From the NCBI RefSeq assembly GCF_009914755.1, contig NC_060935.1: DNA of 64,000 nt; one strand, 5' to 3'. Made by a program: the position numbers and the translations under genes. This DNA is from the human T2T-CHM13v2.0 reference genome, Homo sapiens. This document shows, one piece after another, positions 33,601 to 39,751 of this stretch (positions are counted from its first letter, which is position 1; each line of letters begins with the position of its first letter). The notes beneath the pieces were generated by a model that was not told the origin of the DNA, made no database searches, and saw only the letters and a program-made list of their open reading frames with translations.

Positions 33601-36600
33601 CCTTTTTATTCCTGACACTGGGCATATGAGCCTTCTCTCTTTTTTGCCTTGATCATTCTAGCTAGAAATTTGTTAATTGTATTTATCTTTTCAGAGAACC
33701 AACTTTTGGACCTGTTGATTCTCCCATTAATTCTTAGCTTTTGTGCTCTGCAGGATTCTCTTCTTTCTACTTTTGTCTATTTTGCTGCTCCTTTCTTAAC
33801 TTCCTCAGCTCATTAACTTTCAGTTTTTCTTCTTTACTAGTATGCATATTTGAGGACTAGAGTTCCCTTTAAATCCTGCCTTAGCTGCAACTCATGAGTT
33901 TTTATATGTAGTATTTTTATTACTACTCAGTTAGAAATATTTTATAATTTCCATTATGATTTCTTCTTTGACCCATAGGTTGTTTGTTTCTTTATTTCCA
34001 AACAAATAAGGGTGTTTTAGTTATCTTTTATTTTTTACTTTTAGCTTAAATGCATTGGTCAAATAGCAAGCCCTATATCATTTCAGCCCTTTGAAATATG
34101 TTGAGGCTTGCTTAATGGGCTAGTATGTAAGAATTTATTAAGGGCCTATGTATTCTTGAAACAAATGTGTGTCTTAGACCATTTGGGATGCTCTAACAAA
34201 ATGCCATAAACGAGGTGGCTTGTAAACAACAGAGATTTGATTCTCATAGTTCTGGAGGCTGGGAAGTACAAGATTGAGGCACCAGCAGATTCAGTGTCTG
34301 GTGAGGGCCTGTTTCCTTCTTCGTAGATAGCACTTTCTCACCGTGTCCTCATGTGGTGAAAGGGTGAATGAGCTCTCTCGGGCCTATTTCATAAGGGCAC
34401 TGATCCCATTCATGAGGCCTCTACCTTCATGACCTACCACCTCCCAAAAGACCCCACCTCCTAATACTGCTATGTTGAGCGTTAGGATTTTAACATATGA
34501 ATTTGATGGGGAACAAACATTCAAATCATAGCAGTGGGTGTTTGGGTGCATTATGTTGTATATGTCCATTAAATCAAGTTGGTTAATCCTGCTGTTCATG
34601 TAATACATATTTTAACTGATGCTTTTGTCTGTTTTTAATCCTCAACCAAATATCTTCTTATTTTACGCTTTGTATTTGTCCTTAAAGAGCTGTTTCTTTT
34701 TCTCTCCATTCTTATCTTCTTTCGAATTGATAGTATTTTGTCATTCTAGTTCTTCTGCTCTACTAATTTGGAAGTTAATACACTTTGATTATATTATTTT
34801 GTGGTGTCTAAAATTGGAGTGTAAGTATTTTATTTTGGATCCCACTAAGCACCAGTGAGGGAATGGGGAAGTGAGACAGGGAAAGCAAGCAATCTGATGC
34901 AGGGGGGATTAATGTGGAAAACTAGGGCTCAGCCACTTTAATTCCATCTTTCTTATTTTTAACCACACATGGCATTATTTTTTATGTCTATTAGAATCAC
35001 CCACATGTTGGCCTTCTCAGTTAATTCTTCATTCCTTCTTGCATTTCAGACCTTCCACTGGGGTTCACATTCCTTCTGTCTGAAATTCATCATTTAGAAC
35101 TTCCTTTAGAGAGGACGTACTAGTGGCAAGCTTTTAGTTTTGCCCGCTACTTTCTCTATTTTGTCCCAATTCTTCAAAGACTTTTTCTGGTTGTAGAATT
35201 CTAAGTTGACAATTGCTTTGTTTTAGCACATTTACAATATCATTCTCTTGTCTTCTAGCAAGCTTCCTAGTCCTGCAAAGTCAGCTGTTAGTGTAACTAT
35301 CACTTGTGTTTTTTCTGTAGATGTTTTTAACATCTTTTGTAGTCTTTGGTGTTGCAGTTTTTTATCAGTAAAATGTCTAGGAGGGAATTGCTTTTCAAAT
35401 ATTTTGCTTGTGATTCACTGGACTTCTAAACATAGTCCTTCCTAGACTGTTACAATGATTAAATGAGTTAATATGTGTAAAGCACATATAGAACAGTACT
35501 TGCACAAATAAGTGCTCAATAAATACTACCTATTTTGGATTCTGTGTATTGATGTCTGTGTCAGTTCTTAATACATTCCTTCATAGCTCCAACCCACCCT
35601 TCTGTACTCTGTGGTGTGAGAGCTAGTCTATGTCTCTTAGCTTTCTCTTTTATTTTTTCCATTTCCCTTTCTCCCTCTGCTACATTTTGCACAATTTCTT
35701 TTAGCCTATCCTCCAATTGCAAATTGGACAGATTTACAAATTGGATTTTGCACACACAACTTTCCTTTGCCAGTGTCTCTATGTTGGTTCCACCAGTGAG
35801 AGATTCTGGAGGGACATGCAAGGCTTGAGGAGGAGGAAGGGACTTACCATGTCCTGTTTTTTTGTTTGTTTGGTTTTTGTTTTGTTTTGTTTCTGAGGTC
35901 TGGTTGTGGGCTTATGATCCTGTGAGCAATCTTGGCGATGGTTGTCTGCATGCAGCTGTTGGCTCAATGCACGGCTCATCTCTGCGGTGGCATTCCTTGG
36001 GTTCCTCAGGTGTCCAGCATTCCCGCAGCAGCTGTGCTTTCTCATCAGAGCTTTTTGATGCTTGGTTCTGTGGACTCGTCCTCTAAGTTTCTAAGTTTCT
36101 CCTGGTTTCCTTGTTCTGTCAGCCCAGTGAGTTTCTGCATTTGCCACCTCTGTTACACTCCGGAGTCCACCTTTACTCTCTTAGCCATTAACCACTTTTT
36201 ACTTAGTCAATTCTTTATACTAAATTTTATATTAATAATTTCTGACTCAAGTTTAAGGTGGGTTTCTGTCTCCTGACTGGATTCTGATACAGTATTTATC
36301 ATCAGTTCTGGAAAATTCTCTGTCTTTATCTGTTTAAATATTATTCTAGTCCATTTGATCTCTCTTATCTCTCAGAAACTCCAGTCTGACATAGAGCAGA
36401 TCTTTCTCCTCTATGCTCGATGTCTCTTAGCTTTCTCTTTCACTTTTTCTATTTCTCTTTTGCCCTCTGTTACATTTTGGATAATTTTTTTTTAGCATAT
36501 CTTCCTATTTACAAATCTATTCAATTACATATAACATTCTGTCAAACTCCTCTACTGCTAATATATACAAGGTATTTTATATCTATATATCAGCATGTTT
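30620..36600 (-). mobile_element. Old fragmented antisense L1M remnant with nested MIR/LTR insertions
   Basis: T-rich antisense L1 ORF2-like motifs (tatctcattgtggtttaatttgcattcc; tatcttagcactatttattgaaa; tggtagaattcactggtaaagccatctg; tcagagaaccaacttttgg). Boundaries approximate. Confidence 0.7.
34170..34533 (-). mobile_element. MLT1A/MSTD-type MaLR LTR
   Basis: tgtcttagaccatttggg...gttctggaggctgggaagtacaagatt...caaacattcaaatcatagca. Confidence 0.85.
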
Positions 36601-37816
36601 AGCTTTTTAGCATTTTAGGCTTTCAGGAAAAGGGTGTATCTTGAGAGTTAGCCAGACATATTACTGGAACCTGATATGTCAATATTTGGAATCTTTTCTT
36701 CCAGCAAACATAAGCAATGATGGTGTTCACACTTTTGGTTTGTATCGTATTTTCTAGCAATGGATTTGGTGTAGCACCTCTGGAGTCTAGAGTGAGGTAT
36801 TTTCTAGGAGAATGCCCCACTACATTGATTTTTTGTGCATTAAGTATTGTAGCATTATTTTCTCATGAGGTCATAGCCTGGGACGATGAATCAAATTCTT
36901 TACCAGCAGACCGTGTGGGAAGAACAGCCACCAGTGAACCAAATACCCAGACAATATGGAAATAACATGTTTTTCTTTCTTCTTGCCTTCCTTCTCACCC
37001 TTTGTTTCTTCCCTTATATGTGCATTTATTTACTTATAACAAACATTTATTTAAGGGTGGGTAGAGGGTCATTACAAGGAAACGGATTCCTATCTATAAT
37101 AAAAAATCTGATTCTGACTGTAAATCTTGGAAATTTCTGGAGAGGGTAGAAAAAAATTAATGATGGAGTGAGGGGAAATGGGTACAATATCAAGGCCACA
37201 TATATGCTATATCACCACTATGTCTAAAATTCCCTGGTAAATTGACCCATGAGTGGGAATGAGGCACATTTCCCAAGGTAAGGATTCAATGTAAGGAAAG
37301 CTATCATTGAAATTCCTCAATACCTCAGATTGAATAGTAAAATACGTACTGTTAAGGCCATTTTACTCACCAAAACTGAGGCTTAAGAGTCTCAAAAGTT
37401 AGTTTTTCCAGCTGTCCATTTTACAAATTGCTAGTAGCAAACCAGGATAACAACTTACATCTTTGGACTTTCTGGATGTCTCCTGCTGTGCTCCATTACT
37501 AGGGCAGTCAGCAGAAGCAGGGAGTGTCTGTGCTCCAGCAGCAGTGCCTGGGGTCAGTCCACAAAGACACCCTGCTTCCATTCTACATCTCCTAGGTCTG
37601 TGAATTGACATTTGAAGATACAACAGTTGCAATAATCTGAGACAGTTTGCCTGCCACATGCAACTTCTTGCAATGGGCAATCTTAATACCACACAGGTTT
37701 CCTTTACTCCCTTTCCCCACCCCAACACACTTGGTGAGCAGGATCAATGACTGATCTAAGTTCAAGGGCAGAGGCTACCATTTGGAATTGCCAGAATAGA
37801 GCTGTGTGCACTCCAA

Positions 37817-38050
37817 CCAACAGTGTACAAGGGTCCCCTTTTCTCCATATCCTTGCCAGCATTTGTTATTGTCTGTCTTTTGGATAAAAGCCATTTTAAC
37901 TGAGGTGAGATCATATCTCGTAGTTTTGATTTGCATTTCTCAACTACGAGATATGATCTCACCTCAGTTAAAATGGCTTTTATCCAAAAGGCAGACAATA
38001 ACAAATGCTGGCAAGGATATGGAGAAAAGGGGACCCTTGTACACTGTTGG
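37817..38050. repeat. Near-perfect inverted repeat: 109-bp arms, 16-nt spacer
   Basis: 37817-37925 is the reverse complement of 37942-38050 with a single mismatch (T37876/G37991); spacer 37926-37941 TTGATTTGCATTTCTC. Confidence 0.97.
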
Positions 38051-38440
38051 AATGTAAATTAGTACAACCACTATGGAGAACGGTTTGGATGTTCCTCAAA
38101 AAATTAAAAATAGAGCTACCATATGACACAGCAATCCTATTGCCAGGTATATACCCAAAGGAAAGGAAATCAGTATATCCAAGAGCTATCAGCACTCCCA
38201 TGTTTATTGTAGCACTGTTCACAATAGCCAAGATTTGGAAGTACTCTAAGTGTCCATTAGCAGATGAATGGATAAAGACAATGTGGTAATACACATAATG
38301 GAGTACTATTCAGTCATAAAGAAGAATTAGATCCTGTCATTTGCAATAACATGGATGGAACTGGAGGTCATAATGTTGAGTGAAATAAACCAGGCACAGA
38401 AAGACAAACTTTGCATGTTCTCACTTATTTATGGGAGCTA

Positions 38441-38860
<420 letters not shown>

Positions 38861-39215
38861 TTAGAAAGATTGAATAAGACCTAATATTTGCTAGCACAAC
38901 AGGGTGAATATAGTAAAAAATAATTTATTTGTACCTTCAAAAATAACTAGACAAGTATAATTGGGTTGTTTGTAACACACAAAAAATAAGTGCTTGAAGT
39001 GGTGGATACCCCATTTACCCTGATGTGATTATTTTGTATTGCAGGCCTCTATCAGAATATCTCATGTAACCCATAAATATATACACCTACTCTGTACCCA
39101 CAAAAAGTTTTTAAAAAGAAAAATAAATAGCAACCGAAAAAAAAAGAGAGGGAGAAAAGAAAAAAGAAAAAAAAATCAAGTGCCTGGCTGGGTAGAATAA
39201 ATTCTAAGGCCACAA

Positions 39216-39751
39216 TGTTACTGACCATGGGTTTTTTGGCTCTCAGTGTATAGAAATTGACACAAGGCCAATAGTCTTCCCAAACATGCTTTACTGGAAC
39301 TTACGCCCTGGCATAAGGGCCACAACAAAAGAGAGAGCGAATTCTCTGGCTTGCTGACTCCTTGGAAAAAACCGGTAGGGATTTTTTTATTAGGCAAAGC
39401 ACAGGAATTGACGTCAGAGGCAGGATGTGCTGCTGGGCAAAGCATACGAGAAGTGGGGTATGCAGGTCAGCATTACTTGGTTGCAATGGTTATCTTGAGG
39501 AATGGGCCAACTGGTGGTCTGGCCAGTGGCAACAAGGCTGTAAATCAATTATTCAGCATTCCTTCCCAAGGTGGGACACCCGGCAACATTGTTTATCTCC
39601 TAAGGCCAGTTCCTGGAATTAAGTGAAAGGATGACTAATGGACATGTTGTCAGTGAGGTAGTGGTGTGGGTTTTGTGACCAGTGGGAATGCACGAAAGAA
39701 TGCTTTAGCGGGGAGTGAGCTGAAGCCAAGCCCCATCCCTACTCTGTCTCA
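39216..39751 (-). mobile_element. Probable ERVL-class solo LTR
   Basis: TG...CA termini (minus strand begins TGAGACAGAGTAGGGATGGGGCTTGG and ends GGTCAGTAACA); minus-strand AATAAA at 39386-39391; no clear TSD. Confidence 0.55.

What the first reader, a model, noticed from the sequence alone, without database searches (positions are those of the whole stretch)
37806..38058. 109-bp near-perfect palindrome built from an old L1, with signs of arm-to-arm homogenisation, ~2.9 kb upstream of the NNMT ATG
Seen: arms 37817-37925 and 37942-38050 pair at 108/109 positions (the mismatch is a G:T/G:U wobble) around a 16-nt loop. Three features argue against a simple recent copy of one arm. (a) The loop (TTGATTTGCATTTCTC) is itself the L1 continuation of the left arm and is absent from the right arm. 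(b) Just outside the stem the left side keeps a diverged L1 segment (cactccaaccaac, compare cagtcccaccaac in the L1PA at ~50324) whereas the right side lacks 4 nt of it. (c) Both arms share TCTCGTAGTT where other L1 copies in this window (~31333, ~50431) read TCTCATTGTGGTT, a shared 3-nt deletion. Established: L1MA elements are tens of millions of years old, and twin-priming inversions normally overlap by only a few bases. Inference: the inverted duplication dates from insertion and the stem has been kept identical by intra-palindrome conversion or template switching. It could extrude as a cruciform near the promoter. If the distal NNMT pre-mRNA is made, it would fold into a >100-bp RNA duplex (possible ADAR, PKR or Dicer substrate).
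Basis: partly seen in the sequence, partly recalled or inferred. Interest (0 to 1): 0.8.

Follow-up and report, generated by a model that had tools for sequence, protein, structure and literature searches.

The report
Near-perfect L1 hairpin repeat upstream of NNMT
An old L1 fragment about 2.7 kb upstream of the main NNMT start carries a real, almost perfect 109-bp inverted repeat whose two arms were made alike long after the L1 arrived, a large example of a known copying-error process with no sign of a function so far.

Summary
Arms 37817-37925 and 37942-38050 pair at 108 of 109 positions around a 16-nt spacer. It is the only inverted repeat of at least 40 nt within 300 nt in the window.

The right arm is the first 109 nt of a sense L1 3' fragment running to about 39130, followed by an A-rich tail. 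The left arm plus spacer is one contiguous antisense L1 piece.

The L1 is old. Its body differs from the column majority of 35 related copies at 46 of 504 sites, 9.1%. Both arms share 5 substitutions and a 3-nt deletion against those copies. The arms' last common ancestor therefore lies in about the last 5% (95% CI 0.1-28%) of the element's residence. The identity is secondary.

When the inverted repeat itself arose cannot be settled here. I put 0.5 on origin at L1 integration (a 5' inversion with an unusually long internal duplication), later corrected by arm-to-arm template switching. I put 0.35 on a late, one-step inverted duplication. No target-site duplication was found, and no primate orthologues are held.

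Cruciform and dsRNA roles are untested inference. No Rfam family reaches threshold. I rate it a new member of a known kind, of moderate to low interest.

The parts
37805..37816 (-). Outer tail of the left piece. It is L1-like when read as reverse complement and covers the 4 nt that the right piece lacks. It is either diverged L1 or target DNA that annealed to the L1 RNA (microhomology).
   Evidence: 8 of 12 positions agree with the column majority of 35 copies, then 2 of 10 further out. The extension score is 4, reached by a 0.017 fraction of 127,952 background positions.
37817..37925 (-). Left arm: antisense L1 ORF2 3'-region sequence.
   Evidence: It carries 5 substitutions and a 3-nt deletion against 35 copies, all shared with the right arm.
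37926..37941 (-). 16-nt spacer: antisense L1, contiguous with the left arm and absent from the right piece.
   Evidence: Other copies align straight through it. 16 of 16 sites agree with the family majority. 11 of 16 bases are A or T.
37942..38050 (+). Right arm: the first 109 nt of the sense L1 fragment. It carries the one unshared change (G at 37991; the family majority is A).
38051..38563 (+). L1 body (3' part of ORF2 into the 3' UTR). A 4-nt deletion lies at its junction with the arm.
   Evidence: 82-85% identical to the 39 best-scoring other genome copies. 46 of 504 sites differ from the majority of 35 copies, and the deletions are listed.
38564..38859 (+). Alu inserted into the L1, with a 19-nt A run. 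GTTAGA is repeated on both sides.
   Evidence: Read directly from the sequence. Alu identity is by eye from its well-known start and is recalled, not tested against a library.
38860..39130 (+). Remainder of the L1 3' UTR.
   Evidence: It aligns to the 3' ends of the related copies up to query positions 243-285 of 38861-39400.
39100..39175 (+). Degenerate A-rich tail of the L1.
   Evidence: Read from the sequence.

Best explanation
The repeat is the 5' end of an old, 5'-truncated L1 that integrated with a short 5' inversion. An antisense piece of about 125-137 nt (37805/37817-37941) abuts the sense element (37942 to about 39130 plus A tail). The two overlap by 109-121 nt of L1 coordinates. This is the layout of a twin-priming insertion with an internal duplication, but with an unusually long overlap and an unusually short inverted piece. 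It left a hairpin-capable inverted repeat with a 16-nt spacer.

The two copies then aged with the rest of the element. Late in its history, one arm was copied from the other, once or repeatedly. The likely route is a replication template switch, in which the nascent strand folds back or jumps to the other arm (the classical quasi-palindrome correction); short-tract gene conversion is the alternative. This made private mutations, including a 3-nt deletion, common to both arms and erased the rest. Only one difference has arisen since.

Shown: the anatomy, the age of the L1, the shared private changes, and the recency of the arms' common ancestor. Inferred: origin at integration, the copying mechanism, and any effect on DNA or RNA. 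I see no evidence of a function. Transcripts from the distal NNMT start at 2171 must carry the repeat as intronic RNA that can fold into a duplex of about 109 bp. Consequences for editing or sensing are speculation.
For: Anatomy:
- The inverted repeat is confirmed.
- The left arm and spacer form one contiguous antisense L1 stretch, and the right arm continues into 1.2 kb of sense L1 with an A tail.
- No L1 homology lies in 36000-37816 apart from the left piece, so the repeat sits exactly at the element's 5' end.
- The left piece holds L1 sequence missing from the right piece at both ends: the spacer at 16 of 16, and the outer tail at 8 of 12 (background fraction 0.017).

Age:
- The body is 9.1% from the majority of 35 copies. 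Those copies are themselves 5.4-11.2% from it.

Secondary identity:
- The arms share 5 substitutions, of which 3 are carried by 0 or 1 of 35 copies.
- They also share a 3-nt deletion that 0 of 35 copies carry.
- If the arms had diverged independently, P(at most 1 difference) is 5e-8 to 4e-4. The arms' common ancestor lies at 5% of the element's age (CI 0.1-28%).

Literature (passages read):
- 17% (283 of 1,703) of 5'-inverted somatic L1 insertions carry an internal duplication.
- Microhomology is commonest at the 5' junction of 5'-inverted L1 (PMC2912911).
- Template switching homogenises the arms of inverted repeats and inverts spacers (PMC8604942; PMC5453318).
- It can both create and maintain perfect stems (PMC8794818).
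Against: - No target-site duplication was found. The best local alignment of 37770-37826 against 39100-39240 scores 12, below the shuffle mean of 13.1 (1,590 of 2,000 shuffles and 98 of 120 control windows score at least as well). For an element this old the test has little power, but it gives no support.
- The overlap (109-121 nt) is far above the reported median of 22 bp, and the inverted piece is far below the reported median of 0.54 kb.
- Both cDNA ends would have stopped within 16 nt of each other, which simple twin priming does not predict.
- There is no microhomology at the inner junction (read from the sequence).
- If the outer tail is L1, it is more diverged than expected: 4 of 12 sites, P = 0.019 at 9.1%.
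- Arm-to-arm correction of a 109-bp repeat in the human germ line is assumed, not shown.
- The substitutions shared by the arms show no GC bias (3 strong-to-weak, 1 weak-to-strong, 1 C-to-G). With five events this has no power.
Confidence: 0.5

Rival explanations
1. Late, one-step inverted duplication. The L1 was an ordinary 5'-truncated copy reaching at least 16 nt further upstream. Within roughly the last quarter of its residence, a replication template switch (four-point model) or fold-back repair copied about 125-137 nt of it in reverse complement. The copy replaced the original 5' end and flank. The arms are alike because they are young; no homogenisation is needed.
For: - One event explains both the 108 of 109 identity and the shared private changes.
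- It also explains the spacer: the copy started 16 nt upstream of the return point.
- It explains the missing target-site duplication, which would have been overwritten.
- Template-switch mutations are frequent on the human lineage: 53,666 putative events in genic regions, 31,007 forming new stems. They can make a whole perfect hairpin at once, even without a pre-existing repeat (bioRxiv 10.1101/2023.04.19.537475, passages).
Against: - The copied fragment would be several times longer than the 'few tens of base pairs' scale at which these events are described (PMC5453318, passage). I did not see a length distribution; it is in a supplementary figure.
- The event would have had to remove every upstream L1 base, so that the repeat ends up exactly at the element's 5' end.
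- The L1-like outer tail (8 of 12, background 0.017) would be chance. Otherwise the right piece's 4-nt deletion and 3-4 tail changes would have to be packed into the short time in which 218 stem sites took one change.
Confidence: 0.35
2. Recent retrotransposition of an already old L1 fragment, for example carried in another transcript, with a 5' inversion. The 'private' changes would then come from a source copy, and the arms would be young products of one RNA.
For: It would explain identical arms inside a diverged element without any later copying.
Against: No source exists in this genome. The best other match to the 623-nt body is 85% identical (40 of 14,161 candidates scored). The four other places with the same 3-nt deletion are 77-81% identical to the body. 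An Alu has since inserted into the element.
Confidence: 0.03
3. The hairpin is kept by selection as a functional RNA (a small-RNA precursor or regulatory stem) or as a DNA element of the NNMT upstream region.
For: All changes in the stem are paired. It lies in an intron of distal-start NNMT transcripts (hub annotation). It folds very stably.
Against: - No Rfam family reaches its threshold. The best is a plant miRNA-hairpin model at 118.9 bits against a gathering score of 230, and all other hits are structure-only matches to long hairpin models.
- No gene or RefSeq functional element is annotated there (hub table).
- Paired changes are equally expected from arm-to-arm copying.
- A stem of 109 perfect pairs is far longer than any need of a miRNA precursor (the last point is recalled).
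Confidence: 0.04
4. Assembly artefact: a chimeric or fold-back read built into the assembly.
For: Palindromic artefacts exist in sequencing libraries (PMC3946424, search listing only).
Against: The left piece is not a plain mirror of the right. It has its own 16-nt L1 spacer and its own outer tail, and the right piece has a 4-nt deletion at the boundary. The whole structure is 234 nt, far shorter than the long reads used for such assemblies (recalled). No reads are available here.
Confidence: 0.02

Closest known systems
5'-inverted L1 insertions with an internal duplication (twin priming)
   Same: An antisense 5' piece directly abuts a sense 3' piece of one L1. The overlapping L1 coordinates duplicate the junction region. 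There is an A tail at the 3' end and imperfect complementarity at the outer 5' junction (PMC2912911; bioRxiv 10.1101/2024.08.27.596794).
   Different: The overlap is 109-121 nt against a median of 22 bp. The inverted piece is about 130 nt against a median of 0.54 kb, so almost the whole inverted piece is duplicated and a short-spacer hairpin results. No target-site duplication was found. The arms are 99% alike in an element 9% diverged.
Quasi-palindrome correction: template-switch homogenisation of inverted-repeat arms (Ripley model; four-point model of Loytynoja and Goldman)
   Same: Changes, including an indel, are present in both arms, giving a near-perfect stem. The spacer lies in the orientation of one arm. 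This is the known outcome set of arm homogenisation plus spacer inversion (PMC8604942; PMC5453318; PMC8794818).
   Different: Described cases are mostly arms of about 10 to a few tens of nt. Here the arms are 109 nt. The before-and-after states that define such an event cannot be seen without outgroups.
Hairpins born in one step by template-switch mutation, including new primate miRNA genes
   Same: [quoted passage not shown]
   Different: The stem is far longer than a miRNA precursor. No miRNA family match reaches threshold, and no expression data are available here.
Large sex-chromosome and autosomal palindromes kept alike by arm-to-arm gene conversion
   Same: Arm identity is much higher than the age of the sequence would allow.
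   Different: Those have arms above 8 kb, and 159 of 166 have spacers above 1 kb (Warburton et al. 2004 as quoted in PMC5398296, passage). They rely on homologous recombination over long tracts. This one is 109 bp with a 16-nt spacer.
Closely spaced inverted Alu pairs
   Same: A retroelement-derived inverted repeat able to form hairpins in DNA and double-stranded RNA in introns. Such pairs are under-represented when closely spaced (PMC3215922, search listing and abstract only).
   Different: Alu pairs come from two independent insertions and are usually 10-20% diverged (recalled). Here both arms belong to one element and are 99% alike.

Membership tests
5'-inverted L1 insertion (twin priming) with internal duplication | An antisense 5' piece abuts a sense 3' piece of the same L1 family. 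| tested here: met
   39 other L1 copies align to 37806-37941 on one strand and to 37942-38058 on the other. See also the alignment of 35 copies.
5'-inverted L1 insertion (twin priming) with internal duplication | The L1 coordinates of the two pieces overlap (internal duplication), and the inverted piece reaches further 5' than the sense piece. | tested here: met
   The overlap is 109 nt (up to 121 with the tail). The inverted piece reaches 16 nt further 5'. The size is atypical against the median of 22 bp.
5'-inverted L1 insertion (twin priming) with internal duplication | A poly(A) tail at the 3' end. | tested here: met
   A-rich tail at about 39100-39175, after the L1 3' UTR.
5'-inverted L1 insertion (twin priming) with internal duplication | A target-site duplication of about 10-17 bp flanking the whole insertion. 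| tested here: inconclusive
   The best local alignment scores 12 against a shuffle mean of 13.1, and 1,590 of 2,000 shuffles do as well. At 9% divergence per copy a 15-bp duplication would barely rise above this noise.
5'-inverted L1 insertion (twin priming) with internal duplication | Microhomology between target DNA and L1 at the outer 5' junction. | tested here: inconclusive
   8 of 12 matches to the family at 37805-37816, background fraction 0.017. This cannot be told apart from diverged L1 sequence.
Template-switch or conversion-homogenised inverted repeat (quasi-palindrome correction) | Derived states, absent from relatives of the sequence, are present at mirrored positions in both arms. 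| tested here: met
   5 paired substitutions (shared by 0, 1, 4, 9 and 0 of 35 copies) and a paired 3-nt deletion shared by 0 of 35 copies.
Template-switch or conversion-homogenised inverted repeat (quasi-palindrome correction) | An imperfect repeat in the ancestor or outgroup and a perfect one in the descendant. | not testable with these tools
   No primate genomes are held. The own-genome search states that the genome has no relatives here.
De novo template-switch mutation (four-point model) | The ancestor lacks the inverted copy, and the new segment is the reverse complement of adjacent sequence. | not testable with these tools
   The second half is met for the stem (108 of 109). It is not met for the spacer or the outer tail, which have no counterpart in the present right piece. 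The ancestor cannot be seen.
Known RNA family (miRNA precursor or other Rfam family) | A score at or above the family's gathering threshold. | tested here: not met
   17 matches at E up to 1, none reaching threshold. The best is 118.9 bits against 230.
AT-rich translocation palindromes (PATRR type, as on 11q23) | Several hundred bp, very AT-rich, nearly spacer-free (definition recalled). | tested here: not met
   The arms are 40% G+C, there is a 16-nt spacer, and the total length is 234 nt.

The most novel reading that the evidence does not exclude
A hairpin repeat made when the L1 integrated tens of millions of years ago has been corrected again and again by arm-to-arm template switching in the primate germ line. 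Substitutions and even a 3-nt deletion spread to both arms, while the outermost 12 nt, cut off by a 4-nt deletion, decayed. If so, this locus, and others like it at L1 5' inversions, would be a natural recorder of the rate and tract length of quasi-palindrome correction in humans. It would also be a constitutive duplex of more than 100 bp in distal-start NNMT pre-mRNA.
Probability: 0.22. Interest if true: 0.55.

Novelty: new member of a known kind. Interest (0 to 1): 0.35.

Why it matters
Near-perfect inverted repeats of this length with a short spacer are rare. None other was found in this 64-kb window or in 140,671 nt of 40 other loci. In model systems such repeats cause fork stalling, breaks and rearrangements (PMC7999016, passages).

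This locus offers a clean, cheap test of whether the arms of a roughly 100-bp repeat are homogenised in the primate germ line or whether such repeats are simply born young. A primate alignment would settle that in minutes.

For NNMT itself nothing is shown. The repeat lies 2.7 kb upstream of the main start and inside the intron of distal-start transcripts, outside both annotated enhancers.

Tried and rejected
- **Target-site duplication:** a local alignment with shuffles and 120 control windows found nothing above noise.
- **Rebuilding the pre-insertion site from a split older repeat:** the left flank 37380-37810 is unique in the genome. The right flank holds an unrelated old repeat that starts only at about 39216. 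There is no split repeat to use.
- **In-place template switch with L1 left upstream:** no L1 homology was found in 36000-37816.
- **Source copy for a recent retrotransposition:** none was found; the best match is 85%.
- **The 3-nt deletion as a sub-lineage marker:** four other places share it, but those copies are more distant, at 77-81%. Rejected.
- **Known RNA family:** none reaches threshold.
- **Other short-spacer repeats among fetched loci, to see whether old ones stay alike:** 0 found in 140,671 nt. A genome-wide survey was not feasible with the fetch limits.
- **GC-biased change in the arms:** five events, no signal and no power.
- **Papers:** Ostertag and Kazazian 2001 and Szak et al. 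2002 are not held, so the size range of junction duplications rests on a 2024 preprint on tumours. PMC7954356 gave no event lengths in the passages found.
  - A search joining NNMT with palindrome, inverted repeat, cruciform and LINE-1 listed no paper containing NNMT among its top 10 of 460.
  - A search joining twin priming with palindrome and hairpin gave one paper with all three terms. It does not describe this kind of repeat in the passages I read.

Full report
**What is there.** The inverted repeat is exactly as described. Arms 37817-37925 and 37942-38050 are each 109 nt and 99% complementary, with 16 nt between them. The one odd pair is T37876 with G37991. As a single strand, 37800-38065 folds at -134.7 kcal/mol as DNA and -210 kcal/mol as RNA. 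In both cases 0 of 200 dinucleotide shuffles come near (z about -34 and -31). It is the only inverted repeat of at least 40 nt with arms within 300 nt in the whole window.

**Anatomy.** A search of the window's own genome with 37806-38058 found 39 other L1 copies (40 of 4,609 candidates scored). Each aligns on one strand to query positions 1-15 through 131-137 at 88-93% identity. Each also aligns on the other strand to positions 137-145 through 242-253 at 85-94%. So the left arm and spacer are one unbroken antisense L1 stretch, and the right arm is the start of a sense L1.

The sense element runs on through 38563. It is interrupted by an Alu at 38564-38859, with GTTAGA repeated on both sides. 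It resumes at 38860, ends near 39130, and is followed by a degenerate A-rich tail to 39175. Nothing in 36000-37816 apart from the left piece resembles L1. The repeat therefore sits at the very 5' end of a 5'-truncated L1 3' fragment. Its layout is that of a 5'-inverted L1 whose inverted piece (125-137 nt) is almost wholly duplicated in the sense piece.

**Age of the element.** The 623-nt body is 82-85% identical to the 39 best-scoring other copies in the genome (40 of 14,161 candidates scored, one of them the query itself). I aligned 35 copies: 29 and 6. Against their column majority, the body (38051-38564) differs at 46 of 504 sites, or 9.1%. The 35 copies themselves differ from it by 5.4-11.2%, with a mean of 8.8%.

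**The arms share changes made in this copy.** Using the left-arm row, which MAFFT aligned cleanly, the arm differs from the majority at 6 of 108 sites. One of these is only the placement of a gap.
- That leaves 5 substitutions: 37912/37955, 37903/37964, 37872/37995, 37848/38019 and 37835/38032.
- The arms' state at those sites is carried by 0, 1, 4, 9 and 0 of the 35 copies respectively.
- There is also one 3-nt deletion, shared by 0 of 35 copies.
- One search gave 9 of 108 for the right-arm row. Three of those are artefacts of where the same gap was placed, and one is the unshared G at 37991.

A 26-mer across the deletion occurs at up to 2 mismatches at only 4 other places in the genome. Those copies are 77-81% identical to this body, which is further away than the sampled relatives. 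The deletion is therefore recurrent, not a sub-lineage marker.

If the arms had diverged independently since insertion, 10-20 differences would be expected. The probability of at most one is 5e-8 to 4e-4, depending on the rate used. One difference in 218 sites puts the arms' common ancestor at 5% (95% CI 0.1-28%) of the element's residence time. The present identity is secondary.

**What the left piece has that the right piece lacks.** The spacer matches the family at 16 of 16 sites. Beyond the outer end of the stem, the right piece lacks 4 family columns. The left piece, read as reverse complement, matches the family at 8 of 12 positions (37805-37816) and then at 2 of 10. An extension score that high is reached at a 0.017 fraction of 127,952 background positions in the window.

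So the left piece is probably not a copy of today's right piece. The tail has three possible readings:
- It is L1 that escaped homogenisation. In that case 4 differences in 12 sites is high for a 9% element (P = 0.019).
- It is target DNA that annealed to the L1 RNA.
- It is chance similarity.

Microhomology is reported to be commonest at exactly this junction of 5'-inverted L1 (PMC2912911, passages).

**When did the repeat arise?** There are two live readings.

(i) It arose at integration. 5'-inverted insertions with an internal duplication are a recognised class: 283 of 1,703 inverted somatic insertions in ten tumours, with a median duplication of 22 bp and a median inverted part of 0.54 kb (bioRxiv 10.1101/2024.08.27.596794, passages). 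Small duplications at inversion junctions are also noted for germline insertions (PMC5668948, passages). This reading explains the position at the L1's 5' end and the extra L1 sequence in the left piece. It needs an unusually long overlap and a later copying step between the arms.

That copying step is a described process. Template switching between the arms of an inverted repeat homogenises them and can invert the spacer (PMC8604942; PMC5453318). It has also been proposed to maintain perfect stems (PMC8794818).

(ii) It arose late, by one template switch or fold-back repair. Such events can create a whole perfect hairpin at once and are frequent on the human lineage: 53,666 putative events in genic regions, 31,007 making new stems (bioRxiv 10.1101/2023.04.19.537475). 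This reading needs no homogenisation and explains the missing target-site duplication. Against it:
- The copied fragment would be much longer than the tens of base pairs at which these events are described.
- It would have had to erase all upstream L1.
- The L1-like tail would be chance.

Self-annealing of DNA ends during L1 integration can also give inverted duplications (bioRxiv 10.1101/2024.12.14.628481, passages). That is a variant of (i).

The target-site duplication test found nothing, but it has little power at this age. The flanks offer no split older repeat from which to rebuild the empty site. I put 0.5 on (i), 0.35 on (ii), and the rest on minor rivals.

**Rivals set aside.** A recent retrotransposition of an old fragment has no source copy. 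An assembly artefact does not fit a left piece with its own spacer and tail. A selected RNA has no support: no Rfam family reaches threshold, and the best is 118.9 bits against a gathering score of 230, from a hairpin model matched by structure only.

**Function.** Nothing was tested or can be tested here. By the hub's gene table, transcripts starting at 2171 must carry the repeat in an intron, and both annotated enhancers lie elsewhere. The stem ends 2,714 nt upstream of the main first exon and 2,872 nt upstream of the ATG. A 109-bp RNA duplex and a hairpin-prone DNA segment are physically plausible. The 16-nt spacer should lower cruciform extrusion compared with a spacer-free palindrome, following the general principle in PMC7999016 (passages). 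Effects on NNMT are speculation.

**Verdict.** This is a large and clean example of known processes: an L1 5' inversion and/or a template-switch mutation, followed by arm-to-arm copying. It is worth a quick look in primate alignments, which would decide between the readings, but it is not a new kind of thing.

Noticed in passing
window 38564-38859: An Alu with a 19-nt A run is inserted in the L1 3' region, with GTTAGA repeated on both sides. It gives a minimum age for the L1 relative to Alu activity.
   Followed up: partly
window about 39216-39600 and beyond: An old interspersed repeat starts at about 39216. At least 40 other genome copies match at 70-81% identity, most starting at the same query position, which suggests the end of a repeat unit such as an LTR. 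The family was not identified.
   Followed up: partly
G000 C11:4460335, C3:171466712, C6:90749735, C10:91049228 (loci L046-L049): Four distant L1 copies carry the same 3-nt deletion as both arms of the repeat. This suggests a recurrent slippage-prone spot in this part of L1.
   Followed up: partly
window 38048-38051: The right piece's 4-nt deletion lies exactly at the outer end of the stem, between short direct repeats (TGG...TGG). A slippage deletion at the base of a hairpin is possible but unproven.
   Followed up: no
window 37380-37810: The 431 nt left of the repeat are unique in the genome; the only match is the locus itself.
   Followed up: yes
locus L004, aligned columns about 300-345 of the alignment: One related L1 copy carries a tandem duplication of about 35 nt just downstream of the region homologous to the right arm.
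   Followed up: no
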